Shown: positions 7,641 through 48,442, counted from the first letter of the stretch. The stretch is DNA of 50,379 nt from an uncultured Candidatus Saccharibacteria bacterium (GCA_964589005.1 CAZPQI010000002.1:1-50379), one strand, 5' to 3'. Numbers and translations: made by a program. The notes: generated from the sequence alone by a model not told the origin.

Positions 7641-7660
7641 TGCGGAGAGGGCGAGATTCG
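7641..7660 (-). repeat. Exact 20-nt duplicate of the 3' end of tRNA-Ser (second copy at 7836-7855)
   Basis: TGCGGAGAGGGCGAGATTCG occurs at 7641-7660 and again at 7836-7855, which is half of the T loop, the T-stem 3' strand, the acceptor 3' strand and CA. Confidence 0.95.
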
Positions 7661-7776
7661 GCCACCCGTCACTAAGTATAATTTTCGTCTTCCAACTCAA
7701 TTTTACTAAGTACGCTCGACCCCGACTCAGCGCTTCTTCGTGCTTTGGCACGCGCGCTTCCGTCTTTCGAATCCAG
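7641..7776 (-). repeat. tRNA-3'-linked structured repeat, copy E1 (downstream of tRNA-Ser)
   Basis: Minus sense reads CTGGATTCGAAAGACGGAAGCGCGCGTGCCAAAGCACG...GGGGTCGAGCGTACTTAGTA...ATACTTAGTGACGGGTGGCCGAATCTCGCCCTCTCCGCA. It shares blocks with E2 and E3. The terminal stem is GGAUUCG/CGAAUC. Confidence 0.8.
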
Positions 7777-7791
7777 CTCTTAATCTACATT

Positions 7792-7833
7792 AAAACAAAA
7801 AAGATGCACCTATCAGTACATCATTTTTGTTTT
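7792..7833 (-). terminator. Hairpin directly 3' of tRNA-Ser
   Basis: 18-bp arms (2 mismatches) AAAACAAAAAAGATGCAC / GTACATCATTTTTGTTTT. Confidence 0.55.
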
Positions 7834-7837
7834 ATTG

Positions 7838-7922
7838 CGGAGAGGGCGAGATTCGAACTCGCGGTACCTTGCGGCACTCTGGTTTTCAAGACCAGTGCAT
7901 TCAACCACTCTGCCACCTCTCC
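7838..7922 (-). tRNA. tRNA-Ser (anticodon UGA), long variable arm
   Basis: Acceptor GGAGAGG/CCUCUCC, anticodon stem CUGGU/ACCAG with loop CUUGAAA, variable arm GUGCCGCAAGGUAC, T arm GCGAG-UUCGAAU-CUCGC. Confidence 0.9.
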
Positions 7923-12175: not shown

Positions 12176-12247
12176 GTCCCCATAGTTTAATGGATAAAAC
12201 AAGAGGCTTCTATCCTCTCGATCTGGGTTCGAGTCCTGGTGGGGGCA
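12176..12247 (+). tRNA. tRNA-Arg (anticodon UCU)
   Basis: Acceptor GUCCCCA/UGGGGGC (one G-U), D arm GUUU-AAUGGAUA-AAAC, anticodon stem AGAGG/CCUCU with loop CUUCUAU, T loop UUCGAGU. Confidence 0.85.
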
Positions 12248-12445
12248 CAGCGGTAAACTAAAATTCGCTCAACTTTTGTTGAGCGAATTTTAGTTTATAA
12301 AGCAAATTGCTTTGCTTTCGACCGCTGTGTCGGGCGGAGCATGTTTTTATGACCCCACGGGAATAAAAACGGCGAGCCGGGGTCGAGCGCACTTAGTATT
12401 TTTGAGTGCAAAGCATGAAGAAAATACTTAGTGACGGGTGACCAC
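12248..12445 (+). repeat. tRNA-3'-linked structured repeat, copy E2 (downstream of tRNA-Arg-UCU)
   Basis: CAGCGGT...ACCGCTG stem enclosing a perfect 19-bp hairpin (12255-12296). This is followed by GTCGGGCGGAGCATGTTTTT...AAAAACGGCGAGCCGGGGTCGAGCGCACTTAGTA...AATACTTAGTGACGGGTGACC, which shares blocks with E1, E3 and E4. Confidence 0.8.
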
Positions 12446-12491
12446 AAGAAAATATTTAGCACTTTGCGACTGTAAGGAGTAAGATACGAGT

Positions 12492-15344: not shown

Positions 15345-15525
15345 GGGGACTCGGTCACAGTCACTAAGTATAATTTGCGTGCTTCGCACTTAATTCTACT
15401 AAGTGCTTCGCCCCTGTTTACTTATGAACAGAGTGAATTAGTAGAACAGGAAGTGCCCACGGGGTGCGACCCGGACTCAACGCTTTGCCGTGCTTAAGCA
15501 CGCGCGTTTCCGTCTTTCGAGTCCC
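15345..15525 (-). repeat. tRNA-3'-linked structured repeat, copy E3 (downstream of tRNA-Val)
   Basis: Minus sense reads GGGACTCGAAAGACGGAAACGCGCGTGCTTAAGCACG...GCACTTAGTAGAATTAAGTGC...TATACTTAGTGACTGTGACCGAGTCCC. The terminal stem is GGGACUCG/CGAGUCCC. It carries a 25-nt hairpin module at 15419-15443. Confidence 0.8.
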
Positions 15526-15534
15526 TAAACACTG

Positions 15535-15581
15535 TTGTATAGAAAAAGGTCGTGCGATTAGCACGACCTTTTTCTATACAA
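15535..15581 (-). terminator. Strong hairpin directly 3' of tRNA-Val
   Basis: Perfect 21-bp arms TTGTATAGAAAAAGGTCGTGC / GCACGACCTTTTTCTATACAA. Confidence 0.6.
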
Positions 15582-15583
15582 TG

Positions 15584-15657
15584 TGGGCGTTGAGGGACTC
15601 GAACCCCCGGCCTACTCGGTGTAAACGAGTTGCTCTAGCCAACTGAGCTAAACGCCC
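15584..15657 (-). tRNA. tRNA-Val (anticodon UAC)
   Basis: Acceptor GGGCGUU/AACGCCC, D arm GCUC-AGUUGGCU-AGAGC, anticodon stem ACUCG/CGAGU with loop UUUACAC, T arm GGGGG-UUCGAGU-CCCUC. Confidence 0.9.
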
Positions 15658-17838: not shown

Positions 17839-18093
17839 ATGAATATCACCAACTCCAAAAACAAAGTGACCATTATGCTTGATACACAAGTGTATGAAGG
17901 ACTACGTGCCAAAGTTGGCGCGCGTGGCATCGGTGAGTATCTTAGTAAATTAGCGCGTCCTTATGTGGTTTCAGATGATATCGAAGCAGGGTACAAAGCT
18001 ATGGCAGCTGATGATAAACATAACAAAGAAGCCAACGAATGGATTGAGGGAACGTTGTACACGTCGGATGATGAAAATGTATGGCAGTTTTAA
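17839..18093 (+). CDS. Type II antitoxin (MazE/RHH-like), partner of the MazF-like toxin
   Basis: 84-aa acidic C-terminus. Overlaps the downstream PemK/MazF gene by 13 nt. Confidence 0.65.
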   Translation: MNITNSKNKVTIMLDTQVYEGLRAKVGARGIGEYLSKLARPYVVSDDIEAGYKAMAADDKHNKEANEWIEGTLYTSDDENVWQF

Positions 18094-18419
18094 AACCCAA
18101 GAGAGGTGAGGTGAGATGGATTAATTTTGACCCGAGTGAAGGCTCAGAAACGCAAAAAACTAGGCCAGCAATTATTGTAAGTAATAATAGTGCAAATAAA
18201 TACCTAAGTCGTTTTCAGGTTATCCCGCTTACTTCAAATATAAAACAAATATATCCTTCTGAATGCTTGGTATTGGCTAGTGGGCAAAAAAGCAAAGCCA
18301 TGGCAGATCAAATTACTACCGTAGATACTATTCGCGTAGGTAAGAAGATCAGCTTCCTTTCAGGTAAAGATTTAATTTCGGTGGAACAAATAATGAAAAT
18401 ACAATTAGGCTTAGATTAG
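18081..18419 (+). CDS. mazF: MazF/PemK-family endoribonuclease toxin
   Basis: KPKRGEVRWINFDPSEGSETQKTRPAIIVSNN...VIPLTSN... is the canonical PemK pattern. Confidence 0.8.
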   Translation: MAVLKPKRGEVRWINFDPSEGSETQKTRPAIIVSNNSANKYLSRFQVIPLTSNIKQIYPSECLVLASGQKSKAMADQITTVDTIRVGKKISFLSGKDLISVEQIMKIQLGLD

Positions 18420-19140: not shown

Positions 19141-19145
19141 TATTT

Positions 19146-19240
19146 GGCGCAGGTTACTAATTCACTACGTTCATAAGTACCTCCTGCCCTGGCTCGCCCG
19201 TTTTGCTCAAGGAAAGTCGCAAAACATGACTCCGCCTCAC
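19146..19240 (-). repeat. tRNA-3'-linked structured repeat, copy E4 (downstream of tRNA-Leu; shorter)
   Basis: Minus sense reads GTGAGGCGGAGTCATGTTTTG...CAAAACGGGCGAGCCAGGGCAGG-[25-nt module]-CCTGC. It aligns with the 5' half of the E2 core. It carries the same 25-nt module as E3, in the opposite orientation. Confidence 0.7.
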
Positions 19241-19245
19241 AAATC

Positions 19246-19273
19246 TAAAAAACAGCACACAAGTGCTGTTTTT
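19246..19273 (-). terminator. Hairpin with T run directly 3' of tRNA-Leu
   Basis: AAAAACAGCAC-TTGT-GTGCTGTTTTTT in minus sense. Confidence 0.65.
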
Positions 19274-19285
19274 CTTTACGATTTG

Positions 19286-44890: not shown

Positions 44891-44968
44891 TATACCCAGC
44901 ACTAACTTCATTGTTGTGCATCGTATGCACGCGAACTTCGTTCGACAATGAAGTTAGTGCTGGGTATA
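44891..44968. repeat. Perfect 24-bp inverted repeat enclosing two small hairpins (three-way junction)
   Basis: TATACCCAGCACTAACTTCATTGT (44891-44914) pairs with ACAATGAAGTTAGTGCTGGGTATA (44945-44968). The loop holds GTGCAT-CGT-ATGCAC and CGAAC-TTC-GTTCG. It ends 10 nt before the likely transporter ATG. Confidence 0.9.
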
Positions 44969-48031: not shown

Positions 48032-48099
48032 TTACGAAATACATAGACTCTCTCTCATCTTTACGAATAAAAGGTGTAATAGCCACGACATATTCTACG

Positions 48100-48140
48100 T
48101 ATATACAATGTATTGACAATGTACGTACATTGTATATACT
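48100..48140 (+). promoter_or_regulatory. Putative promoter with nested operator palindromes of toxin-antitoxin pair 2
   Basis: TTGACA (48113-48118), 16 nt, then TATACT (48135-48140). An 18-nt perfect palindrome ACAATGTACGTACATTGT lies at 48116-48133. Outer arms are TATATACAATGTA (48100-48112) and TACATTGTATATA (48126-48138). The ATG is at 48149. Confidence 0.55.
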
Positions 48141-48148
48141 ATGAGTAT

Positions 48149-48442
48149 ATGAACAATACATTAAACAATACAACAATAAACGTACGAATAGATTCTGCTA
48201 CCAAAGAAGCGGCACATAAAACATTTGAAAGTCTGGGGTTAGATATTAGTACTGCGATAAAGATGTTCTTGCGTCGTGCTGTTGATACTCAGTCAATTCC
48301 TTTTGAAGTGCGAACAGAAAATGGATTTACTCCAGAGTACGAAAAGATGCTCCTGAGAGAAACAAAGGAAGCTCTCAAGGAAGCAAAGAAGCATAATTTT
48401 AAAACGGGAAAAGAGGTGCATGATCATATTTTGTGTCGGTAA
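48149..48442 (+). CDS. RelB/DinJ-family antitoxin
   Basis: INVRIDSATKEAAHKTFESLGLDISTAIKMFLRRAVDTQSIPFEV is the DinJ ribbon-helix-helix pattern. Confidence 0.8.
   Translation: MNNTLNNTTINVRIDSATKEAAHKTFESLGLDISTAIKMFLRRAVDTQSIPFEVRTENGFTPEYEKMLLRETKEALKEAKKHNFKTGKEVHDHILCR

What the first reader, a model, noticed from the sequence alone, without database searches (positions are those of the whole stretch)
7641..7922. 175-bp element bracketed by an exact 20-nt duplication of the tRNA-Ser 3' end (attL/attR-like, but no integrase)
TGCGGAGAGGGCGAGATTCG occurs at 7836-7855, inside the intact tRNA-Ser (second half of the T loop through the acceptor 3' strand plus CA). It occurs again at 7641-7660. 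Identity stops exactly at both edges of the 20-mer. The 175 bp between the copies is a hairpin (7792-7833) plus repeat copy E1. This is the geometry left by tyrosine-integrase insertion into a tRNA 3' end, but the cargo is far too small to encode anything. Copy E3 ends with only an 8-nt match (CGAGTCCC) to the tRNA-Val T arm, and E2 has none. So either E1 is a recent insertion of a non-autonomous miniature integrative element mobilised in trans, or the tRNA-like 3' end is a functional part of the RNA.
Basis: partly seen in the sequence, partly recalled or inferred. Interest (0 to 1): 0.75.

Follow-up and report, generated by a model that had tools for sequence, protein, structure and literature searches.

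The report
Small structured element targeting tRNA ends
The 20-base repeat flanks one copy of a previously undescribed, gene-less, about 190-base structured element that sits at the 3' ends of tRNA, tmRNA and a few very conserved protein genes across a whole class of ultra-small (CPR/Paceibacteria) bacteria, duplicating the end of the gene it enters; how it moves is unknown.

Summary
TGCGGAGAGGGCGAGATTCG occurs only at 7641-7660 and 7836-7855, where the second copy is the 3' end of tRNA-Ser. Chance expectation is zero.

It is not a one-off. The 175 bp between the copies is a terminator hairpin plus one member (E1) of a structured family. The window holds four members (E1-E4), behind 4 of its 7 tRNAs.

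A motif scan and a covariance model found over 140 copies in about 100 Patescibacteria genomes. Of the 104 assessable copies among the 113 best hits, 80 lie just downstream of a same-strand tRNA (29 anticodon types; 3% expected). Others follow tmRNA, ftsZ, rplL and other ribosomal-protein genes.

The anatomy is constant:
- gene 3' end (A);
- hairpin;
- a strand complementary to A;
- a three-way-junction core (97% of pair cells paired, 23 of 25 pairs with compensatory changes; not in Rfam);
- a second copy of the gene end (B).

In T-loop insertions the repeat is most often 19-22 nt. Two close relatives differ by a precise 191-nt presence/absence at tRNA-Gln.

No integrase, transposase or reverse transcriptase lies next to any copy, and none is on viral contigs.

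Best reading: an ORF-less integrative element that restores its target gene. The mechanism is unresolved.

The parts
7837..7922 (-). tRNA-Ser(tga), intact; target gene of E1
   Evidence: ARAGORN; Rfam RF00005, 65.1 bits
7836..7855 (-). Repeat copy A: the functional 3' end of tRNA-Ser (T loop C56 to discriminator, plus CA)
   Evidence: Exact 20-mer; lies inside the tRNA
7792..7833 (-). Hairpin X: intrinsic-terminator-like hairpin directly after the tRNA
   Evidence: Terminator scan: stem 7803-7822, then TTTTTTGTTT; at the tip of the long hairpin in the fold
7768..7790 (-). 'Anti' strand of E1 (ATGTAGATTAAGAGCTGGATTCG). Its 3' part GGATTCG is complementary to the T-loop/T-stem start of both repeat copies; the rest pairs imperfectly with the tRNA end
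   Evidence: Sequence; folds; family comparison
7660..7769 (-). E1 core: three-way-junction structured motif (P2 hairpin; long P3 hairpin with ACUUAGUA...UACUUAGUGAC)
   Evidence: Covariance model R1, 75.6 bits, E=3.7e-17; the antisense strand scores only 9 bits. Covariation
7641..7660 (-). Repeat copy B: displaced or duplicated copy of the tRNA-Ser 3' end, directly abutting the core
   Evidence: Exact 20-mer. The same arrangement occurs at 26 other tRNA T-loop sites, with a mode of 19-22 nt
12176..12248 (+). tRNA-Arg(tct), target gene of E2
12254..12446 (+). E2 unit: hairpin X (12254-12297), small conserved hairpin P0 (~12299-12319), anti strand ACCGCTGTG (12321-12329, complementary to the tRNA end plus trailer at 12246-12254), core (12328-12443), 4-nt repeat CACA (12443-12446)
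   Evidence: (71.1 bits)
15583..15657 (-). tRNA-Val(tac), target gene of E3
15346..15581 (-). E3 unit: hairpin X (15535-15581), anti GGGACTCG (15517-15524), core with an extra inserted hairpin (15353-15519), 8-nt repeat CGAGTCCC (15346-15353)
   Evidence: 38.1 + 16.6 bits
19285..19369 (-). tRNA-Leu(gag), target gene of E4
19145..19284 (-).
   Evidence: Covariance model, 39.8 bits, E=4e-8; sequence

Best explanation
E1 is one copy of a large family of ORF-less, roughly 110-130-nt structured elements. The whole inserted unit is about 190 nt. The family is specific to Patescibacteria of the Paceibacteria/Parcubacteria group. Its members integrate into the last few to ~40 nt of highly conserved genes: tRNA at the T loop or at the 3' terminus, tmRNA, ftsZ, rplL and other ribosomal-protein genes.

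The inserted unit reads: a replacement copy of the gene's 3' end (A), a terminator hairpin (X), sometimes a small hairpin P0, a strand complementary to A ('anti'), and the conserved three-way-junction core. The original 3' end is displaced and remains as copy B just after the core. The 20-mer pair in the window is this A/B pair, so it is attL/attR-like.

Shown: the family, its structure, its target specificity, the A/anti/B anatomy, and precise gain or loss between relatives.

Inferred: integration happens by pairing or recombination between the target copy carried by the element and the target gene (Campbell-type or guide-dependent). The conserved core is the recognition scaffold for a factor encoded elsewhere. 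Loss can occur by recombination between A and B. The catalytic machinery is unknown.
For: The repeat is exact and not due to chance.

Family size and context. Three copies match the motif in the window, and the model finds a fourth. The same motif is in 115 or more genome loci, almost all of them Patescibacteria. The model gives 143 hits in 99 loci.

Target association. Of 104 assessable copies, 80 lie within 330 nt downstream of a same-strand tRNA, covering 29 anticodon species. Chance expectation is 3%, and no copy lies behind an opposite-strand tRNA. Five copies follow tmRNA genes. Others sit at the 3' ends of ftsZ, rplL and rplB-, rplE- and rpsI-like genes.

Repeats. At T-loop sites the exact repeat of the local tRNA end is most often 19-22 nt, running from C56 to the tRNA end. 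Other lengths range from 7 to 57 nt. At 3'-terminal sites repeats are 3-6 nt, or 42-44 nt when they include the terminator.

Structure. 97.2% of pair cells are paired, against 78% in shuffles. 23 of 25 pairs show changes on both sides. The covariation score is 0.475, against 0.138 shuffled and at most 0.056 with slid partners. A conserved G-U pair and the model scores (75 against 9 bits) identify the gene-sense strand as the folded one.

Precise 191-nt presence/absence bounded by the 19-nt repeat between L005 and L004. A third species has the same insertion with the same hairpin.

Nested and tandem copies occur at one gene (L013, L049, L054).

A whole unit X-anti-core-B(tRNA-Asp) is copied to a second site in L035.

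Cores 90-94% identical sit at different tRNAs within one genome, each with its own matching anti and B.

In protein genes, A and B encode the same C-terminal peptide and stop codon despite 41 nucleotide differences, none of them nonsynonymous. This is expected if both were functional gene ends, one native and one imported.
Against: No recombinase, transposase, reverse transcriptase or nuclease is adjacent to any copy, and no autonomous relative was found.

No strain-level empty site was found for E1 itself.

The anti strand matches each local target. A simple cut-and-paste element would not produce that.

Long-term conservation of the core with compensatory changes, across a class-level clade, would also fit a host-beneficial RNA.

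Within-genome similarity of cores may reflect gene conversion rather than transposition. P3 swapping is seen in L035.

No promoter-like site lies between the terminator and E1, so it is unclear how or whether an RNA is made.
Confidence: 0.55

Rival explanations
1. E is mainly a host-functional structured RNA, a trailer or 3'-UTR module of highly expressed genes. The duplicated gene end and the anti strand are working parts of it. They would form alternative helices (A:anti against anti:B), or a tRNA-like acceptor/T minihelix that lets RNase P, RNase Z or the CCA-adding enzyme process it. Spread would be by ordinary duplication and recombination rather than dedicated mobility.
For: There is strong structural covariation across a whole class of bacteria. 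E is always co-oriented with the upstream gene. The anti strand follows the functional gene end, with the longer helix to A in 44 of 76 copies and to B in only 6. It co-varies with synonymous sites of ftsZ. In the P0 subfamily, anti is the exact complement of acceptor plus T stem, split by P0 at the acceptor/T junction (L020, L023, L074, L126). That gives a tRNA-like top half. In L005 and L061, B is identical to A although the core has diverged by about 10%.
Against: B has decayed in about half of the T-loop copies, and where tested it is not compatible with the 5' half of the RNA (L074). A terminator separates the gene from E, and no promoter-like site was found. The precise 191-nt indel and the dispersed copy of a whole unit show mobility-like behaviour. 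G-U against A-C mismatches in the A:anti helix (14 against 9) show no clear RNA-level bias.
Confidence: 0.2
2. E is a classical site-specific integrative element remnant (a CIME-like or miniature att-bearing element). It would be mobilised in trans by one or more tyrosine integrases.
For: The target classes (tRNA T loop and 3' end, tmRNA, 3' ends of rplL and rpsI) and the tandem accretion match what tyrosine-integrase islands and IMEs do (Islander abstract, PMC4383910; PMC5357655). The target is regenerated and a displaced fragment remains.
Against: No integrase is present in the window, and none is recurrent in 115 loci. No copy is on IMG/VR viral contigs. One sequence family uses 29 or more tRNA types plus protein genes, with repeat lengths from 3 to 57 nt, whereas integrase families are tied to one or a few att sites (PMC5357655). 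The conserved part shows RNA-type covariation with G-U pairs, not protein-binding-site conservation.
Confidence: 0.1
3. E moves through an RNA intermediate, or is itself a guide. The anti strand and the 3' copy of the target would specify the integration site for a reverse transcriptase or an RNA-guided recombinase/nuclease encoded elsewhere.
For: The layout is a constant scaffold flanked by target-specific segments at both ends. The unit copied in L035 starts at the tRNA 3' processing site and ends at the tRNA-like end of B. The T-loop repeats end at or within 3 nt of the mature tRNA 3' end.
Against: No RT or nuclease partner was seen. The anti strand copies the genomic trailer rather than a CCA end. 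Repeats that include whole terminators fit DNA-level recombination equally well.
Confidence: 0.13
4. E is a REP/PATE-like single-strand DNA element mobilised by the IS200-like Y1 (RAYT-like) transposases present in these genomes.
For: Y1_Tnp ORFs with HUH and Y motifs are in 4 of 115 loci. The structure is strand-specific and has a pseudo-symmetric helix, ACTTAGT on both strands.
Against: The ORFs lie 2.4-5 kb from E, not adjacent to it. IS200/IS605-type elements make no target duplication and follow replication direction. E makes 3-57-nt repeats and follows gene orientation, with both orientations within 8 kb in the window.
Confidence: 0.04
5. The 20-mer repeat is a chance match or a local slippage duplication of no consequence.
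For: None beyond its small size.
Against: Zero matches in shuffles. The same geometry recurs at 26 or more other tRNAs in other genomes.
Confidence: 0.01

Closest known systems
tRNA/tmRNA-targeting genomic islands and prophages (tyrosine integrases; 'Islander'-type)
   Same: Insertion into the T loop or the 3' end of tRNA and tmRNA genes. The element carries sequence that regenerates the gene, and a displaced 3' fragment marks the far end (PMC4383910 abstract).
   Different: Those islands are kb-sized and encode their integrase, with one att specificity per integrase. E is about 190 nt and ORF-less. One family has dozens of specificities, an internal inverted copy of the target, and a covarying RNA-like core.
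IMEs, ICEs and CIMEs integrated in the 3' ends of rplL, rpsI, rpmG and tRNA genes of streptococci
   Same: The same class of targets (3' ends of ribosomal-protein and tRNA genes), direct repeats of variable length, and tandem accretion (PMC5357655).
   Different: Those elements carry integrase and mobilisation genes (CIMEs are their deletion derivatives) and are kb-scale. No such genes or relatives were found for E.
MITEs and REP/BIME elements
   Same: Small, non-coding, multicopy and structured, presumably mobilised in trans.
   Different: MITEs have terminal inverted repeats and a fixed, short target duplication. REPs are simple hairpins. E has no TIRs, has target-derived direct and inverted repeats of variable length, strict gene-3'-end specificity, and long-term compensatory evolution.
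Folded single-strand recombination sites (integron attC; CTX-phage attP)
   Same: A long imperfect hairpin (A-X-anti) whose sequence varies while its structure is kept. In E this hairpin duplex mimics the target site.
   Different: No integron integrase, cassette ORF or dif-like site is present. E has an additional, highly conserved three-way-junction core. This comparison rests on my own knowledge of those systems and was not tested here.
Guide-RNA-bearing insertion sequences (IS110/IS1111 bridge or seek RNA; IS200/605 TnpB/IscB omega RNA)
   Same: A conserved structured scaffold of about 100-200 nt next to short segments that match the target. The 3' target-matching tail of 19-22 nt resembles the geometry of a TnpB guide.
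   Different: No IS110 recombinase, TnpB or IscB gene is adjacent. Those elements do not create long target duplications or carry a replacement gene end. No Rfam hit was found. The resemblance is recalled from knowledge and was tested only through Rfam and ORF searches.

Membership tests
Tyrosine-integrase genomic island / CIME at a tRNA gene | Insertion in the T loop, anticodon loop or 3' end of a tRNA/tmRNA gene, with regeneration of the gene and a displaced fragment | tested here: met
   20-nt A/B repeat from the T loop to the tRNA end. The same holds at 26 other T-loop sites and at tmRNA genes.
Tyrosine-integrase genomic island / CIME at a tRNA gene | An integrase gene in the element, or an integrase-bearing relative with the same ends | tested here: not met
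   No integrase among about 40 window ORFs. No recurrent recombinase in 1427 ORFs of 115 loci. No copies on viral contigs.
Tyrosine-integrase genomic island / CIME at a tRNA gene | One att specificity (or a few) per element family | tested here: not met
   29 tRNA anticodon species, tmRNA and at least five protein genes are used by one sequence family.
MITE (DDE-transposon derivative) | Terminal inverted repeats conserved between copies | tested here: not met
   The ends of the unit are target-derived and differ between copies. Only the internal core is conserved.
MITE (DDE-transposon derivative) | Target-site duplication of fixed short length | tested here: not met
   Exact repeats of 3-6, 19-22, 42-44, 51 and 57 nt.
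IS200/IS605-type or REP/RAYT single-strand elements | No target duplication; insertion 3' of a fixed tetra- or pentanucleotide; orientation tied to replication direction | tested here: not met
   Duplications are present. Targets are diverse gene ends. E2 is on the + strand between E1 and E3 on the - strand, all within 8 kb.
IS200/IS605-type or REP/RAYT single-strand elements | A Y1 HUH transposase encoded in the genome | tested here: inconclusive
   Y1_Tnp ORFs are in 4 of 115 loci but not adjacent to E. Whole genomes could not be examined.
Known structured RNA families (Rfam 15) | A match to a curated covariance model | tested here: not met
   Only tRNAs reach the gathering score. Nothing credible overlaps E even at E<=10.
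Structured RNA (generic) | Base pairs kept through compensatory changes, with strand asymmetry (G-U pairs) | tested here: met
   23 of 25 pairs have changes on both sides; 97.2% of cells are paired; covariation 0.475 against 0.138 in shuffles. G-U in 81 of 112 rows at the base of P3. The sense strand scores 75 bits and the antisense 9 bits. Caveat: alignment A3 is fitted to the model, but the independent MAFFT alignment A2 gives the same picture.
Guide-RNA IS (IS110 bridge RNA, TnpB/IscB omega RNA) | The RNA is encoded next to its recombinase or nuclease gene | tested here: not met
   No such ORF lies next to any copy.
Self-splicing or spliced intron | The host gene is interrupted and requires removal of the insert | tested here: not met
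   The upstream gene is always complete through copy A: ARAGORN finds intact tRNAs, the tmRNA 5' strand pairs with A, and the ORFs have stop codons. Splicing itself is not testable with these tools.

The most novel reading that the evidence does not exclude
E is a new kind of programmable, ORF-less mobile RNA/DNA element. A conserved three-way-junction scaffold carries two target-derived segments, one complementary to the target gene's 3' end and one identical to it. Together these would specify integration into the ends of the most conserved genes, through an RNA-guided or RNA-mediated (reverse-transcription or ribozyme-assisted) mechanism using a host- or genome-encoded factor. The element supplies a replacement gene end and terminator so that the host gene survives.
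Probability: 0.22. Interest if true: 0.95.

Novelty: categorically new. Interest (0 to 1): 0.82.

Why it matters
CPR/Patescibacteria have tiny genomes and few recognised mobile elements. Here a single non-coding family occupies more than half of the tRNA genes in a 50-kb window, and it recurs behind tRNA, tmRNA, ftsZ and ribosomal-protein genes in about a hundred genomes.

It combines three things:
- the target logic of integrase-driven islands;
- the size of a MITE;
- the long-term compensatory evolution of a functional RNA.

Each copy carries both a sense and an antisense copy of its own target. If the target-matching segments direct integration, this would be a compact, naturally reprogrammable system that inserts DNA without destroying the target gene.

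If instead E is a host RNA, it is a new abundant RNA class tied to tRNA and mRNA 3' ends in a major, poorly understood part of the bacterial tree.

Either way, it creates tRNA-gene fragments and duplicated gene ends that annotation pipelines will misread.

Tried and rejected
1. Rfam at gathering and permissive thresholds gave only tRNAs.

2. Strain-level empty site for E1. Exact-protein look-ups returned only the same organism with the same 355-nt spacing. The metagenome scan with the predicted empty junction returned 42 tRNA-Ser loci, mostly unrelated bacteria. Only L153 was a distant syntenic empty site.

3. Viral contigs. The strict motif gave 0 hits. The loose motif gave 41 loci, none matching the covariance model.

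4. Search for a partner protein. All-against-all clustering of 1427 ORFs from 115 loci, with Pfam on cluster representatives and on about 40 window ORFs, found only housekeeping genes and a non-adjacent Y1 transposase.

5. Opposite-strand guide-RNA idea (5' 20 nt antisense to the tRNA, ending at the bidirectional hairpin). Rejected, because the conserved G-U pairs and the model scores favour the tRNA-sense strand.

6. Primer-binding-site idea. The anti strand complements the genomic trailer, not a CCA end.

7. Hammerhead and other ribozyme motifs: no Rfam hit, and the motif order does not fit.

8. G-U against A-C bias in the A:anti helix (14 against 9): inconclusive.

9. Fixed-length target-site duplication: rejected by repeat lengths of 3-57 nt.

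10. Literature searches on CPR ncRNAs and tRNA-targeting small elements found no description.

Full report
**Observation.** TGCGGAGAGGGCGAGATTCG occurs exactly twice in the window, at 7641-7660 and 7836-7855. No further match appears with up to three mismatches, and none appears in 100 shuffles. tRNA-Ser(tga) lies at 7837-7922 on the minus strand. The right-hand copy is therefore the tRNA from the middle of the T loop to the discriminator, plus two bases. Identity stops on both sides of both copies, and 175 bp separate them. The hairpin next to the tRNA (stem 7803-7822 followed by a T run) scores as an intrinsic terminator for the tRNA.

**What lies between the copies.** The remaining ~130 bp is one member of a repeat. 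All three copies lie directly downstream of a tRNA plus a perfect ~20-bp hairpin, in the orientation of the tRNA. A covariance model built later finds a fourth, more divergent copy behind tRNA-Leu (19145-19241). So 4 of the 7 tRNAs in the window carry the element. Rfam has no family for it.

**The family.** Apart from one chance hit in Calothrix and two contigs of a probably contaminated bin, all are Patescibacteria: Paceibacteria, Parcubacteria, Kaiser-, Campbell-, Nomura- and Wolfebacteria, and Minisyncoccia. The model finds 143 copies in 99 of these 8-kb loci, up to five per locus.

Target association was counted on the 113 best hits.
- 104 had enough upstream sequence to judge.
- 80 lie within 330 nt downstream of a same-strand tRNA, covering 29 anticodon species.
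- None lies behind an opposite-strand tRNA.
- 3% would be expected for random positions.

Five further copies follow tmRNA genes. Others sit at the very end of ftsZ (three species), rplL (three species) and rplB-, rplE- and rpsI-like genes. None is on IMG/VR viral contigs.

**Structure.** An independent MAFFT alignment of 48 cores gives a three-way junction: a short helix P2a, a variable hairpin P2b, and a long hairpin P3 with a very conserved, pseudo-symmetric stem. 13 of its 25 pairs show compensatory double changes.

On 113 model-aligned copies the figures are as follows.
- 97.2% of pair cells are standard pairs, against 78% after shuffling.
- 23 of 25 pairs have changes on both sides.
- The covariation score is 0.475, against 0.138 in shuffles and at most 0.056 when partners are slid.

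A conserved G-U pair (81 of 112 rows) identifies the folded strand. So do the model scores: 75.6 and 71.1 bits on the tRNA-sense strand, against 9 and 19 bits on the other. The folded strand is the gene-sense strand. This rejects my early idea of an antisense guide RNA ending at the bidirectional hairpin.

**Anatomy of a unit.** Listing tRNA end, spacer, core and tail for about 70 copies shows a constant plan:
- the gene's 3' end (A);
- a hairpin X that starts right at the gene end;
- in one subfamily, a small conserved hairpin P0;
- a strand complementary to A and its trailer ('anti');
- the core;
- a second copy of the gene end (B) abutting the core.

There are two site types.
- In 26 copies, plus L065, the repeat starts in the T loop. 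Exact lengths are 7-57 nt, with a clear mode at 19-22 nt, which spans C56 to the tRNA end. The window's 20-mer belongs to this mode.
- In 19 copies the repeat starts in the last few bases of the tRNA. It is 3-6 nt long, or 42-44 nt when it includes the whole terminator.

In 11 T-loop copies, B is 18/18 identical to tRNA positions 56-73. In about half of the copies it has diverged.

The anti strand follows A rather than B. Its longest Watson-Crick helix is longer with A in 44 of 76 copies and with B in only 6. In the ftsZ lineage it co-varies with synonymous third positions of A.

In the P0 subfamily, anti is the exact complement of acceptor plus T stem, and P0 interrupts it at the acceptor/T junction (L020, L023, L074, L126). 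Together with B this would form a tRNA-like top half.

For E1, the 3' seven bases of anti (GGATTCG) pair with the start of either repeat copy. The rest pairs imperfectly with the tRNA end. The whole region folds well below shuffled controls (z = -3.9).

**Evidence for gain and loss.**
- Two related species (flanks ~97% identical over ~250 nt) differ by a precise 191-nt indel in tRNA-Gln. L005 has A, X, anti, core and B. L004 has a single copy of the 19-nt repeat and nothing else.
- A more distant species (L061) has the same insertion with the same hairpin X. Either the element was lost precisely in L004 or it entered the same site twice.
- A distant syntenic relative of the window's own locus has tRNA-Ser with no element (L153).
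- In L035 a complete unit, including the tRNA-Asp-derived B, is copied 1.5 kb away, where only 7 nt of the left flank match. Its P3 has been exchanged for another variant with all pairs kept.
- Nested and tandem units occur at single genes (L013, L049, L054).
- Cores 90-94% identical sit at different tRNAs in one genome, each with its own matching anti and B. Gene conversion between cores could contribute to this similarity.

**Protein-gene targets.** In ftsZ and rplL the tail after the core re-encodes the same C-terminal peptide and stop codon as the gene's actual end. This holds despite 41 nucleotide differences over about 55 codons, none of them nonsynonymous. In L066 the first 23 nt are identical and the next 15 carry eight synonymous differences. 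Both copies have therefore been functional gene ends. The simplest reading is that B is the resident end and A arrived with the element from a diverged lineage. Use of both copies, through excision or splicing, is not excluded. In the tmRNA case the 5' acceptor strand pairs with A, not B. All tRNAs and ORFs are complete through A, so the element does not need to be removed for gene function.

**Machinery.** About 40 window ORFs are all housekeeping. Examples are SpoU, Mur ligase, RuvA, CofD, RuvX, PilM/N, UppS, L19, NusG, SHMT, ThyA and several aminoacyl-tRNA synthetases. Clustering 1427 ORFs from 115 loci gives no recurrent recombinase, RT or nuclease. The only candidate is an IS200-like Y1 transposase in four loci, 2.4-5 kb from the nearest element. 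No sigma-70-like promoter is predicted between the terminator and E1.

**Interpretation.** E behaves like the tRNA/tmRNA-targeting islands catalogued in Islander, which regenerate the target and leave a displaced fragment (PMC4383910). It also resembles the integrative elements found in the 3' ends of rplL, rpsI and tRNA genes, which show tandem accretion (PMC5357655). But it fails their defining tests:
- it has no integrase;
- it is about 190 nt long;
- one family has dozens of target specificities;
- its repeats range from 3 to 57 nt.

It also fails the tests for MITEs (no TIRs, no fixed duplication) and for IS200/605- or REP-type elements (it makes duplications, and its orientation follows the gene rather than replication).

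My best-supported account (0.55) is an ORF-less integrative element. Its conserved core is a recognition scaffold, and its target-derived segments (A/B and anti) provide site specificity by pairing or recombination with the target. Precise loss would occur through the direct repeats. The steps shown and the steps inferred are separated in the explanation section.

A host-functional trailer RNA (0.2), an RNA-mediated or RNA-guided mechanism (0.13), a classical trans-acting integrase (0.1) and Y1-transposase mobilisation (0.04) remain as rivals. They are not all mutually exclusive.

**Novelty.** No Rfam family exists and no description was found in the searchable literature. The combination of features is not that of any known class, so I rate it categorically new at the level of what is demonstrated (a new structured element family with this anatomy). 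The mechanism is open.

Noticed in passing
It lies behind tRNA-Leu(gag) and has a shortened P3. It shares a 25-nt segment with the extra hairpin inserted in E3 (15419-15443 against 19155-19179, 92% complementary).
   Followed up: yes
L004 (SCTS01000006.1), oriented extract positions ~40-130 upstream of tRNA-Gln: Relative to L005 there is an ~88-nt insertion at the 5' side of tRNA-Gln, flanked by a 20-nt duplicate of the tRNA 5' end (TGGGGAATCGTCTAATGGTA). The geometry mirrors that of E, so it may be a different small element that targets tRNA 5' parts.
   Followed up: no
L013 6914-7573, L088 3187-3843, L107 2201-2890, L108 2997-3671: IS200-like Y1 (RAYT-like) transposase ORFs of ~220 aa with HUH and Y motifs (PF01797). 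They lie 2.4-5 kb from E copies and are not adjacent to them.
   Followed up: partly
L126 10052-10225; L049 oriented extract ~105-300; L054 oriented extract ~160-300: Units with the same A-hairpin-anti(P0)-...-B architecture but a different or much shorter core, which the covariance model misses. The superfamily is wider than the motif used here.
   Followed up: partly
L065 5414-5463: A 50-nt AT-rich perfect palindrome (TTAATTTAGGTATATAATTAGGTATATACCTAATTATATACCTAAATTAA) interrupts the duplicated terminator after copy B.
   Followed up: no
window 44891-44914 / 44945-44968: A perfect 24-nt inverted repeat with a 30-nt spacer at the start of an AI-2E transporter gene. It gives a weak (19-bit) match to the E model through its stem only.
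   Followed up: no
window 48091-48158: Overlapping AT-rich palindromes (39-nt arms, 77% complementary) in an intergenic region.
   Followed up: no
window 17839-18419 (+): A MazF/PemK-type toxin gene (18081-18419) with a small upstream ORF (17839-18093), a likely antitoxin. It lies between the E3 and E4 loci.
   Followed up: no
L039, L115 (JBLHQB01, labelled Patiriisocius sp.): Two contigs of a Flavobacteriaceae-labelled MAG carry typical E copies, in L039 next to an rplB-like ribosomal-protein gene. This probably reflects CPR contamination of the bin.
   Followed up: no
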